Positions 20,711 to 21,297 of a stretch of 39,034 nt of DNA are shown one piece after another. The notes under the pieces are model-generated. The model had not been told where the DNA came from. It did no database searches and saw only the letters and a list, made by a program, of their open reading frames with translations. The number at the start of each line of letters is the position of its first letter. Within the stretch, counting starts at the first letter, position 1. This DNA comes from a virus. The DNA is taken from the UHGV virus genome UHGV-0388326; one strand, written 5' to 3'. Position numbers and translations under genes: made by a program.

Positions 20711-21088
20711 TTAATTAACTTCGAGGATAATAGAATCTTTAGACTTGAATCCCACTTTCCTCATGGCTGTAATGACGTTTTGGATAATCCACGTTTTCCC
20801 AAACTCTCTTTCGTGTACAATGGCGCAAGGAAAATGAAGGGCGCTTTTGTTGCACTTTATGGTGAAAGTTGTACCTTCGGAAAAATCCAAAACAGTCTGC
20901 AGATGTGCAGATATAAACGATTTAAACACATCTTCAAGCTCAGCAAGAGTAATTGGCGGTTTGTTCCTCTCGTCGTTCAGGCGTTCATATGCTGCATGAA
21001 ATGAAAAGTGAATTCTTGCCGCATCTTCTTGCAAGATCTCGTTAATCTCATCCTCAAGATCAATGAGTTGTTGTTCTGTTATAGACAT
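20711..21088 (-). CDS. hypothetical protein (125 aa), second gene of AT-rich cassette
   Basis: ORF overlaps upstream gene by 10 nt; acidic N-terminus; no family recognised. Confidence 0.6.
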   Translation of the reverse strand: MSITEQQLIDLEDEINEILQEDAARIHFSFHAAYERLNDERNKPPITLAELEDVFKSFISAHLQTVLDFSEGTTFTIKCNKSALHFPCAIVHEREFGKTWIIQNVITAMRKVGFKSKDSIILEVN

Positions 21089-21297
21089 AGATAACGGGAG
21101 GTCGCCTCACTTATTTTTTGATTTAATTCATCATCATTGGATGCACGTACAGTAGCAACATGCTTACTTTGGCGTAGGGTCCCAATTCTGATATCAAATT
21201 CTTCATTATCGAAAGAGTCAACGAAAACAGCTTTACCAGTTTCTGGGTGGTAAAAAGAGGCATAGTTTTGGTTGAGTTGCATATCAAATTTAAACAT
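21079..21297 (-). CDS. hypothetical protein (72 aa), first gene of AT-rich cassette
   Basis: ORF; no family recognised. Confidence 0.55.
   Translation of the reverse strand: MFKFDMQLNQNYASFYHPETGKAVFVDSFDNEEFDIRIGTLRQSKHVATVRASNDDELNQKISEATSRYLCL

What the first reader, a model, noticed from the sequence alone, without database searches (positions are those of the whole stretch)
20711..21297. AT-rich two-gene cassette of unknown function in the accessory region
Two overlapping minus-strand ORFs (72 aa then 125 aa, 10-nt overlap) with their own upstream TTACC-N5-GGTAA site (21415-21429) and their own terminator (20691-20710). GC content is visibly lower than the surrounding virion genes, and they sit between the ejection-protein operon and ant on the opposite strand, where lysogenic-conversion, superinfection-exclusion, toxin-antitoxin or anti-phage defence genes are usually carried. 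I recognise neither protein. A small upstream protein plus a larger downstream protein with an acidic N-terminus fits a TA-like or small defence module, but this is inference only.
Basis: inference. Interest (0 to 1): 0.7.

Follow-up and report, generated by a model that had tools for sequence, protein, structure and literature searches.

The report
Swappable two-gene cargo in prophage slot
Two real, always-together genes of unknown function sit in a swappable cargo slot of a phiV10-like E. coli prophage; the larger belongs to a huge unannotated family of phage proteins that look like enzymes, so the pair probably works like a toxin with its inhibitor, but this is untested.

Summary
The described sequence features are all present. 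The window is a phiV10-like (Uetakevirus) phage. Both ORFs are real genes under purifying selection.

- **Co-inheritance:** the 72-aa and 125-aa genes occur as an adjacent pair in every locus fetched that carries a solo gene of this subfamily: Enterobacterales prophages, a Chromobacterium siphophage, and chromosomal islets beside restriction-modification or toxin-antitoxin genes. They diverge in parallel (r = 0.92).
- **The "own" site and terminator are not private.** Homology with sister phages stops at 20711 and resumes at 21415, so the promoter, palindrome and terminator belong to the backbone. TL-2011b carries a YafO toxin pair in the same slot; phiV10 carries nothing.
- **The palindrome is phage-wide.** TACC-N5-GGTA occurs 12 times in the window (0.28 expected), at the ant promoter, at a leftward early promoter, and flanking the repressor gene. 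It is probably the repressor operator, which would silence the cargo in lysogens.
- **The proteins match nothing described.** Neither matches Pfam, NCBIfam, PADLOC or PDB. The 125-aa protein is one whole domain of a very large, mostly viral family, found solo or fused, including in lytic myophages. H31, R36, R41, E50, T107, R110 and K111 are invariant.
- **The 72-aa partner** is acidic, folds confidently into four β-strands plus a helix, and has no fold match.

Best reading: an effector-inhibitor pair, confidence 0.4. RNase chemistry is only inferred.

The parts
21079..21297 (-). Gene for the 72-aa partner protein. It is acidic, with four beta-strands followed by a C-terminal helix and an invariant VDSFDN motif.
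   Evidence: ORF. 30 homologues. AF2 mean pLDDT 90.9. pI 5.2 here and 4.1-4.8 in homologues. dN/dS 0.11. Found next to the large gene in all loci fetched that carry a solo paired-subfamily large gene.
20711..21088 (-). Gene for the 125-aa effector-like protein. It is a solo copy of a large unannotated domain family centred on phages. All family-invariant residues are present: H31, R36, R41, E50, T107, R110, K111 and F114, plus the subfamily residues C79 and C88.
   Evidence: PHROG phrog_14518, with a weak match to the C-terminus of phrog_23027.
21079..21088 (-). 10-nt overlap of the two genes, which makes translational coupling likely. The orthologues overlap by 4-10 nt or are 2-12 nt apart.
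21298..21414 (-). Cargo-specific 5' leader between the slot promoter and the start codon of the small gene.
   Evidence: Homology breakpoint at 21415. Alignment with orthologous modules. A proposed hairpin sequestering the ribosome-binding site is not supported.
21415..21429 (.). TTACC-N5-GGTAA palindrome, one of 12 copies of a phage-wide operator-like motif. It belongs to the backbone side of the slot.
21429..21450 (-). Slot promoter remnant. TTGCAG is at 21450-21445 and TACTAT at 21434-21429, only 10 nt apart. Enterobacter and Salmonella orthologues have TTGCAG-17-TAATAT, so the E. coli lineage lacks 7 nt of spacer.
21468..21486 (-). Weak hairpin GGCACA-GGGA-TGTGCC followed by TTT, just after the ant stop codon. 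It may act as a leaky terminator between ant and the cargo.
   Evidence: It was not called by the terminator scan.
20690..20712 (-). Intrinsic terminator that abuts the stop codon of the 125-aa gene. It is part of the backbone flank shared with TL-2011b and phiv142-3.

Best explanation
The two genes form one functional unit that travels as cargo. In this phiV10-like prophage they occupy a defined slot. The backbone supplies a promoter overlapped by an operator-like palindrome on one side and a terminator on the other.

The 125-aa protein is a solo version of a very large, unannotated, phage-centred domain. Its invariant polar residues (His, Arg, Arg, Glu, Thr, Arg, Lys) look like an active site. 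I propose that it is an effector acting on nucleic acid, most plausibly an RNase with barnase/RelE-like (BECR-type) logic.

The 72-aa acidic beta-protein would be its dedicated stoichiometric inhibitor or partner. It would be made first from the same mRNA by translational coupling, as barstar or an antitoxin is.

The slot promoter carries the same palindrome as the ant promoter and the leftward early promoter. The pair is therefore probably kept off by the prophage repressor and switched on with early genes at infection or induction, not expressed constitutively in the lysogen.

**Shown:** both are real genes; they are strictly co-inherited and diverge together; the slot boundaries; the motif count; the size, architectures and invariant residues of the domain family; the confident fold of the small protein.

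**Inferred:** toxicity, inhibition, RNase chemistry, which protein binds the palindrome, and the timing of expression.
For: **The pair is one unit.**
- The genes are adjacent in the same order, overlapping or nearly so, in all loci fetched that carry a solo paired-subfamily large gene (contexts).
- Pairwise identities of the two proteins correlate across 11 pairs (r = 0.92, Mantel p about 2e-4).
- Both are under purifying selection.

**It is mobile and keeps conflict-system company.**
- It occurs in podoviral and siphoviral prophages.
- It stands alone in the Pantoea allii chromosome.
- It lies beside HicAB, beside a PIN_3 plus HTH_17 toxin-antitoxin pair, and beside a type I restriction-modification system.

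**The slot holds toxins.** TL-2011b carries a YafO_toxin gene plus a small upstream ORF between the same breakpoints.

**The large protein looks like an effector domain.**
- There are 635 representative hits, and more than 1,462 hits with a broader profile.
- Of 335 domain hits, 195 are solo, 64 C-terminal, 61 N-terminal and 15 internal.
- It is fused to cytidylyltransferase-like, Zeta-toxin/AAA_33 kinase and HNH domains and to several domains of unknown function.
- It is present in lytic myophages.
- H31, R36, R41, E50, T107, R110 and K111 are invariant in 33 diverse members.
- The predicted element order is three helices then four strands. A His in an early helix and a Thr in a late strand echo the BECR configuration described in PMC5512222.

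**The partner looks like an inhibitor.**
- It is compact, with pLDDT 91.
- It is consistently acidic.
- It is absent wherever the domain is fused or sits in a lytic phage.

**Regulation.**
- The palindrome occurs 12 times against 0.28 expected.
- It directly abuts the -10 hexamer at the ant promoter (TTGCAA-17-TATATT) and at the leftward early promoter (TTGACA-17-AATTAT), and it flanks the HTH repressor gene.
- The repressor of this phage genus shuts off lytic transcription (PMC9782041).
Against: - No sequence or fold link to any known toxin, RNase, antitoxin, immunity or defence family was found. The searches covered Pfam, NCBIfam, PADLOC, PDB sequences and Foldseek. A profile comparison with the Mu gp30 C-terminal domain gave 1% probability.
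- The AF2 model of the 125-aa protein is unreliable, with pLDDT 44. The helix/strand order is therefore weak evidence.
- The small protein is more conserved than the large one (51% against 42% mean identity), and it is well folded. This is unlike a typical labile antitoxin and equally fits an obligate subunit.
- The E. coli 125-aa protein is itself acidic, with pI 5.2.
- Which protein binds the palindrome has not been demonstrated.
- The E. coli-lineage promoter has a 10-nt spacer, so the cargo may be barely expressed.
- Toxicity has not been tested.
Confidence: 0.4

Rival explanations
1. The pair is a classical prophage-borne type II toxin-antitoxin, abortive-infection or superinfection-exclusion module. 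It is expressed in the lysogen to protect or stabilise it.
For: - The architecture is toxin-antitoxin-like and the pair is mobile.
- It has defence and toxin-antitoxin neighbours in chromosomal contexts.
- A YafO toxin pair occupies the same slot in TL-2011b.
- Low G+C marks it as acquired DNA.
Against: - The slot promoter carries the same operator-like palindrome as the ant and early promoters, placed where a repressor would block transcription.
- In E. coli the promoter spacer is 7 nt short.
- There is no PADLOC, Pfam or NCBIfam match.
- The small protein lacks any DNA-binding antitoxin fold and is acidic.
- The large domain is widespread in virulent phages without the partner.
Confidence: 0.2
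2. The pair is a non-toxic early phage function made of two subunits. It could be a counter-defence enzyme, a sponge for immune signalling nucleotides, or a host-takeover factor. The small protein would be a cofactor or specificity subunit rather than an inhibitor.
For: - The domain family is dominated by viral and metagenomic sequences and by lytic myophages. It is fused to cytidylyltransferase-like, kinase and HNH domains in large multi-domain proteins of the 'polyvalent' type (concept from PMC5512222).
- The operator position predicts early expression together with ant.
- The small protein is highly conserved and well folded, like a structural partner.
Against: - Stand-alone copies sit in bacterial chromosomes, outside prophages, beside restriction-modification and toxin-antitoxin genes. 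That is unexpected for a purely phage-offensive factor.
- The partner is absent from all lytic-phage and fused versions. This fits a safety inhibitor needed only where the host must survive.
Confidence: 0.25
3. The pair is an accessory regulator of the anti-repressor (immI) module, for example modulating Ant or the repressor.
For: The pair lies immediately downstream of ant genes of two unrelated families (Bro-N, and pRha/ANT) in E. coli, Klebsiella, Enterobacter, Salmonella and Chromobacterium prophages.
Against: - The pair also occurs with no ant gene or prophage nearby.
- Sister phages keep ant with different cargo or none.
- The large domain occurs in lytic phages that have no lysogeny module.
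Confidence: 0.05

Closest known systems
Type II toxin-antitoxin operons, such as yafNO or relBE. A YafO-family pair occupies the same slot in phage TL-2011b.
   Same: A small upstream gene overlaps a larger downstream gene, and both are transcribed as one short unit. The pair is co-inherited, mobile and patchily distributed. It occurs in prophage cargo slots and in chromosomal islets beside other toxin-antitoxin and restriction-modification genes.
   Different: Neither protein matches any toxin or antitoxin family. The small protein has no ribbon-helix-helix, helix-turn-helix, AbrB or Phd fold. It is acidic, compact and more conserved than the large one. The upstream palindrome is a phage-wide motif, not a private autoregulatory operator.
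Barnase-barstar and colicin-immunity pairs, in which a secreted or deployed nuclease has a dedicated acidic inhibitor.
   Same: An enzyme-like protein of about 110-125 aa, predicted as helices followed by a beta-sheet, is paired with a small acidic, well-folded partner encoded next to it.
   Different: No sequence or structural match was found. The partner's fold (four beta-strands plus a helix) is unlike barstar. Nuclease activity and inhibition are untested.
PBECR domains: phage BECR-fold RNase domains of polyvalent proteins, including MuF_C (Iyer et al. 2017, PMC5512222).
   Same: It is a phage-centred domain found both solo and at varied positions in large multi-domain proteins. It has an invariant His in an early helix and an invariant Thr in a late strand.
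   Different: None of more than 50 members scanned, nor the family consensus, matched Pfam PBECR1-5; one (P0126) gave a sub-threshold, out-of-register MuF_C hit. hhalign against a Mu gp30 C-terminal alignment gave 1% probability. The fusion partners here (cytidylyltransferase-like, AAA_33/Zeta kinase, DUF5824, DUF3008) are not the MuF/portal contexts described for PBECR.
Moron or cargo loci of temperate phages, such as the P22 immI/sieA region and the P2/P4 defence hotspots.
   Same: A fixed position between conserved backbone genes carries alternative, low-G+C accessory cassettes in otherwise near-identical phages.
   Different: Here the backbone itself supplies the promoter, the operator-like palindrome and the terminator. 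The cargo is therefore predicted to be under repressor control rather than expressed from a private constitutive promoter.

Membership tests
Type II toxin-antitoxin system | Two adjacent, co-oriented small genes forming one operon, often overlapping | tested here: met
   There is a 10-nt overlap in the window. Orthologues overlap by 4-10 nt or have gaps of 2-12 nt. A terminator follows directly.
Type II toxin-antitoxin system | The two genes are inherited as a unit across unrelated genomic contexts | tested here: met
   Both genes are present in all loci fetched that carry a solo paired-subfamily large gene. They diverge together, r = 0.92.
Type II toxin-antitoxin system | The toxin belongs to a recognised toxin superfamily | tested here: not met
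   No hit in Pfam, NCBIfam, PADLOC or PDB sequences.
Type II toxin-antitoxin system | The antitoxin has a DNA-binding domain and autoregulates through its own operator | tested here: not met
   The confident AF2 model shows four beta-strands plus a helix, with no ribbon-helix-helix, helix-turn-helix or AbrB fold. The pI is 4.1-5.2. The palindrome is one of 12 phage-wide copies and lies in backbone DNA.
Type II toxin-antitoxin system | The toxin arrests growth and the cognate antitoxin neutralises it | not testable with these tools
   This needs expression experiments.
PBECR / BECR-fold RNase | A core of an N-terminal helix followed by 4-5 strands | tested here: inconclusive
   AF2 secondary structure is H5-21, H31-37, H48-67, E74-79, E85-92, E99-105, E120-123, but mean pLDDT is only 44. 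Foldseek on this model is meaningless.
PBECR / BECR-fold RNase | [quoted passage not shown] | tested here: inconclusive
   H31 and T107 are invariant in 33 diverse members. Their structural register could not be verified.
PBECR / BECR-fold RNase | Detectable profile similarity to PBECR1-5 or MuF_C | tested here: not met
   No consistent Pfam hit. One weak MuF_C hit in P0126 is out of register. hhalign against a 3-sequence Mu gp30 C-terminal alignment gave probability 1%. The target alignment is shallow, so this is a weak test.
PBECR / BECR-fold RNase | Occurs both solo in phages and inside large multi-domain phage proteins | tested here: met
Known anti-phage defence systems (PADLOC-DB v2) | A match to a model of a known or candidate defence protein | tested here: not met
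   The only hit is a spurious Cas8b match at E = 0.01.
Uetakevirus (phiV10/epsilon15-like) cargo slot | Conserved flanks with alternative inserts at the same breakpoints | tested here: met
   The breakpoints are 20711 and 21415 against TL-2011b and phiv142-3. phiV10 lacks 20479-21483.

The most novel reading that the evidence does not exclude
The 125-aa protein defines a very large family of phage effector domains that has gone unrecognised. The family has more than 1,400 members and no Pfam, PDB or defence-database counterpart, and it may carry a new catalytic activity. The 72-aa protein would define a new inhibitor family. Together they would be a new toxin-antitoxin or effector-immunity family, domesticated from the arsenal of lytic phages and carried in a repressor-controlled, plug-in expression slot of Uetakevirus prophages.
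Probability: 0.3. Interest if true: 0.75.

Novelty: new variant of a known kind. Interest (0 to 1): 0.55.

Why it matters
If the 125-aa domain is an enzyme, it is one of the commoner unannotated domains in marine and soil phage genomes. It appears solo, fused to nucleotide-metabolism and kinase domains, and in T4-like phages. The E. coli and Klebsiella pair offers a small, tractable entry point, with a natural inhibitor, for finding out what it does.

The slot itself is also of practical interest. The backbone provides a promoter, an operator and a terminator, between which different toxin-type cargos are exchanged among near-identical phages. The 12-copy ATTACC-N5-GGTAAT motif gives a testable map of the regulon of a phage genus whose operators have not, to my knowledge, been defined.

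Tried and rejected
- **Family scans.** Pfam, NCBIfam, PADLOC and PHROGs scans of both proteins gave only function-unknown PHROGs. A Pfam scan of 33 diverse family members and of the family consensus sequences gave nothing consistent.
- **PDB sequence searches** with three profiles gave only spurious hits.
- **AF2 of the 125-aa protein** used a shallow 20-sequence alignment and failed, with pLDDT 44. Foldseek on that model is noise.
- **Fused copies of the small protein.** A search in multi-domain relatives found none, except one truncated fusion-like fragment, P0098.
With the close alignment it returned only five species.
- **A conserved hairpin sequestering the ribosome-binding site** in the leader: 4 pairs, essentially no covariation, rejected.
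- **A private autoregulatory operator:** rejected after the motif count and breakpoint mapping.
- **hhalign against the Mu gp30 C-terminal domain:** no similarity, but the target alignment has only 3 sequences.
- **Literature.** No paper mentions the protein accessions, the ETEC_2621 locus tags or DUF3008. The epsilon15 genome paper could not be retrieved.

Full report
**1. What is there**

The window is a phiV10-like podophage of the genus Uetakevirus. It is about 97% identical to phiV10, O157 typing phages 9 and 10, HEMP4 and phiv142-3 over 83-86% of its first 25 kb.

On the minus strand, going downstream, the region contains:
- an ant operon, with a Bro-N anti-repressor at 21495-22220;
- a 72-aa ORF at 21079-21297;
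- a 125-aa ORF at 20711-21088, overlapping the previous one by 10 nt;
- a strong intrinsic terminator at 20712-20690.

The palindrome TTACC-CCAAA-GGTAA lies at 21429-21415. The cassette is 38.7% G+C against 48.5% for the window, which is the 5th percentile.

Both ORFs are real genes. Each has full-length homologues. dN/dS is 0.11 for the small gene. For the large gene pN is 0.064 against pS 0.79.

**2. The two genes are one unit**

The pair occurs in the same order, overlapping or nearly touching, in many contexts:
- Uetakevirus-like prophages of Klebsiella, Enterobacter and Salmonella, always just downstream of a Bro-N ant gene.
- A Chromobacterium siphophage prophage, downstream of a pRha/ANT-type ant gene. 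The 125-aa gene was not called there but is intact.
- The Pantoea allii chromosome, with no prophage nearby.
- A small integrase island beside HicAB in Pantoea coffeiphila.
- Pantoea and Erwinia chromosomes, beside a PIN_3 plus HTH_17 toxin-antitoxin pair.
- Beside a type I restriction-modification system, and on a contig that looks like Bacteroidota.

Homologues as distant as 33-45% identity still have the small gene directly upstream. A profile scan of all fetched loci found both genes together in every locus with a solo gene of this subfamily, and never the small gene elsewhere. Pairwise identities of the two proteins across 11 pairs correlate with r = 0.92 (Mantel p about 2e-4). The small protein is the more conserved, at 51% against 42% mean identity. 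The pair is rare in E. coli, present in 4 of 5,426 complete genomes including ETEC H10407. It is common in Klebsiella.

**3. The site and the terminator belong to the slot, not the cassette**

BLAST against sister phages shows that homology with TL-2011b and phiv142-3 (95-99% identity) ends exactly at 20711 and resumes exactly at 21415. The terminator on one side, and the palindrome plus promoter on the other, are therefore backbone. The cargo is 20712-21414.

The same slot holds different content in sister phages:
- TL-2011b has a YafO_toxin gene (Pfam 26.3 bits, cut-off 25) plus a 59-aa upstream ORF.
- phiv142-3 has two small ORFs.
- phiV10 has no cargo and lacks 20479-21483 altogether.

The palindrome core TACC-N5-GGTA occurs 12 times in the window against 0.28 expected. 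None of 100 shuffles reached more than 3. Ten of the 12 copies are intergenic. In several cases the palindrome directly abuts a -10 hexamer of a good sigma-70 promoter:
- TTGCAA-17-TATATT|TACC at the ant operon promoter (site at 22476);
- TTGACA-17-AATTAT|TACC at a leftward early promoter (site at 33523);
- sites on both sides of the 194-aa HTH_3 repressor gene (33523, 33585, 34297, 34682).

The motif recurs in the equivalent loci of TL-2011b, phiv142-3 and the Klebsiella, Enterobacter and Salmonella prophages. In this phage genus the HTH repressor shuts off lytic transcription and the Bro-N protein counteracts it (PMC9782041).

I infer that ATTACC-N5-GGTAAT is the operator of the primary repressor, and that the slot promoter belongs to its regulon. 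In Enterobacter and Salmonella the slot promoter reads TTGCAG-17-TAATAT followed immediately by the palindrome. All E. coli copies examined (the window, Phi05_1387B and H10407) lack 7 nt of the spacer. In E. coli, expression may therefore depend on a weaker promoter or on read-through past a weak hairpin after ant (21486-21468).

**4. What the proteins are**

Neither protein matches Pfam, NCBIfam, PADLOC or PDB sequences. Every public name for them is "hypothetical protein".

*The 125-aa protein.* An exhaustive profile search shows that it is one complete domain of a large family:
- 635 representatives at E <= 1e-3, and more than 1,462 hits with a broader profile. Most come from environmental, virus-like contigs.
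- Of 335 domain hits, 195 are solo proteins, 64 C-terminal, 61 N-terminal and 15 internal.
- Fusion partners include cytidylyltransferase-like, AAA_33/Zeta-toxin-like kinase, HNH_3, DUF5824, DUF3008 and DUF5661 domains.
- Isolated lytic myophages carry it: Sinorhizobium phiM12, phiM7 and phiN3 (as the C-terminus of a 602-aa protein), Methylophilales phage Melnitz, Flavobacterium phage immuto, and a Paraglaciecola virus. None of the three such loci fetched (phiM12, Melnitz, immuto) has the small partner.
- Across 33 diverse members, H31, R36, R41, E50, T107, R110, K111 and F114 are invariant. N38, D39, N42, I46, L51, P87 and M109 are nearly so.
- The paired subfamily additionally conserves C79 and C88.

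This pattern points to an active or ligand-binding site. The AF2 model was built on a shallow alignment and is unreliable (pLDDT 44). Its element order is three helices then four strands.

*The 72-aa protein.* It folds confidently (pLDDT 91) into four beta-strands and a C-terminal helix. It has an invariant VDSFDN motif and is acidic throughout the family. It has no significant structural neighbour in PDB or BFVD.

**5. How it most likely works**

The simplest model that fits these facts is an effector-inhibitor pair. The facts are strict pairing in hosts that must survive, absence of the partner in lytic and fused versions, an enzyme-like conserved site, an acidic compact partner, a slot that holds a YafO toxin pair in a sister phage, and neighbours that are toxin-antitoxin and restriction-modification genes.

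For the chemistry I favour a metal-independent RNase of barnase/RelE-like logic. Iyer et al. describe phage BECR domains that occur solo or in polyvalent proteins, with a His in an early helix and a Thr or Ser in a late strand (PMC5512222). This step is inference only. No profile similarity to PBECR or MuF_C was detectable.

The position of the operator suggests that the cargo is silent in the lysogen and comes on with ant and the early genes. That weakens the lysogenic-conversion or constitutive-defence reading. It fits an origin in the early arsenal of virulent phages.

Rivals:
- A constitutively expressed toxin-antitoxin or defence module (0.2).
- A non-toxic two-subunit early function, such as counter-defence (0.25).
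- An ant-linked regulator (0.05).

**6. Novelty and verdict**

The kind of thing is familiar: a two-gene effector/partner cargo in a prophage accessory slot. Both protein families are undescribed in every library I could query, and the large one is very abundant in phage sequence space.

I rate it a new variant of a known kind, with interest 0.55. The most valuable by-products are the plug-in slot, with its backbone promoter, operator and terminator, and the 12-site operator-like motif. The decisive missing pieces are a good structure, which now looks feasible with the deep alignment, and a toxicity and rescue experiment.

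Noticed in passing
window 761, 3888, 21416, 22476, 22856, 28441, 33523, 33585, 34297, 34682, 36628, 36690 (each 13 nt): TACC-N5-GGTA, extended as ATTACC-N5-GGTAAT, occurs 12 times against 0.28 expected. Most copies are intergenic. Several abut -10 hexamers at the ant promoter and a leftward early promoter, or flank the HTH repressor gene. It is probably the operator set of the primary repressor. The motif also recurs in related Uetakevirus loci.
   Followed up: partly
window 22254-22451 (-): Rfam matches above the gathering score lie just upstream of ant: C4 antisense RNA (22254-22337, 66 bits) and isrK (22362-22438, 63.5 bits). 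The c4 a1/b1 target element (22399-22451) also matches but scores just below its gathering score (43.4 vs 46.7 bits). This indicates a P1-type immI antisense control of the anti-repressor.
   Followed up: no
window 22521-22901 (-): A 126-aa ORF shares the C-terminal domain of Ant (phrog_450, phrog_15539) but lacks the Bro-N domain. It looks like a truncated paralogue of ant upstream of the ant operon.
   Followed up: no
window 20456-20689 (-) and 20004-20417 (+): Two further small accessory genes flank the slot. One is a secreted or membrane peptide (phrog_14503, 'membrane associated protein'; probably 53 aa from an internal ATG). The other is a 137-aa protein with a lipobox-like N-terminus and only 39% G+C (phrog_8691). 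Both are of unknown function.
   Followed up: no
window 21429-21450; L032 and L034 near 5640-5674: All E. coli copies of the slot promoter lack 7 nt of the spacer that Enterobacter and Salmonella orthologues have. E. coli reads TTGCAG-10-TACTAT where they read TTGCAG-17-TAATAT. The cargo's promoter may therefore be crippled in this lineage.
   Followed up: partly
L001 (TL-2011b) 3294-3993: The sister phage TL-2011b carries a YafO_toxin gene plus a 59-aa upstream ORF between exactly the same breakpoints. It also has an extra arc/ant module nearby.
   Followed up: partly
window 25119-26210 (-): A 363-aa Acyl_transf_3 protein sits at the position of the phiV10 Oac O-antigen acetyltransferase. It is a probable serotype-conversion and superinfection-immunity gene.
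   Followed up: no
L030 (Pseudomonas silvicola plasmid p1) 5775-6288: This copy of the pair is frameshifted. The small gene is split and partly fused to the large one, so it appears to be decaying.
   Followed up: no
BFVD entry A0A6J7X1T7 (rank 27): The 72-aa model has a weak fold match (E = 0.2, TM 0.54 over 58 columns) to part of a 1,272-aa 'cytidyltransferase-like domain-containing' phage protein. That is the kind of large protein that also carries the 125-aa domain. It may hint at a fused partner-like domain, but the match is not significant.
   Followed up: no
L011 (Pantoea coffeiphila) 6256, 7677, 10924: The integrase island that carries the pair also carries three copies of the TACC-N5-GGTA motif, one of them upstream of int as in the window. 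The island looks like a decayed Uetakevirus-type prophage.
   Followed up: partly
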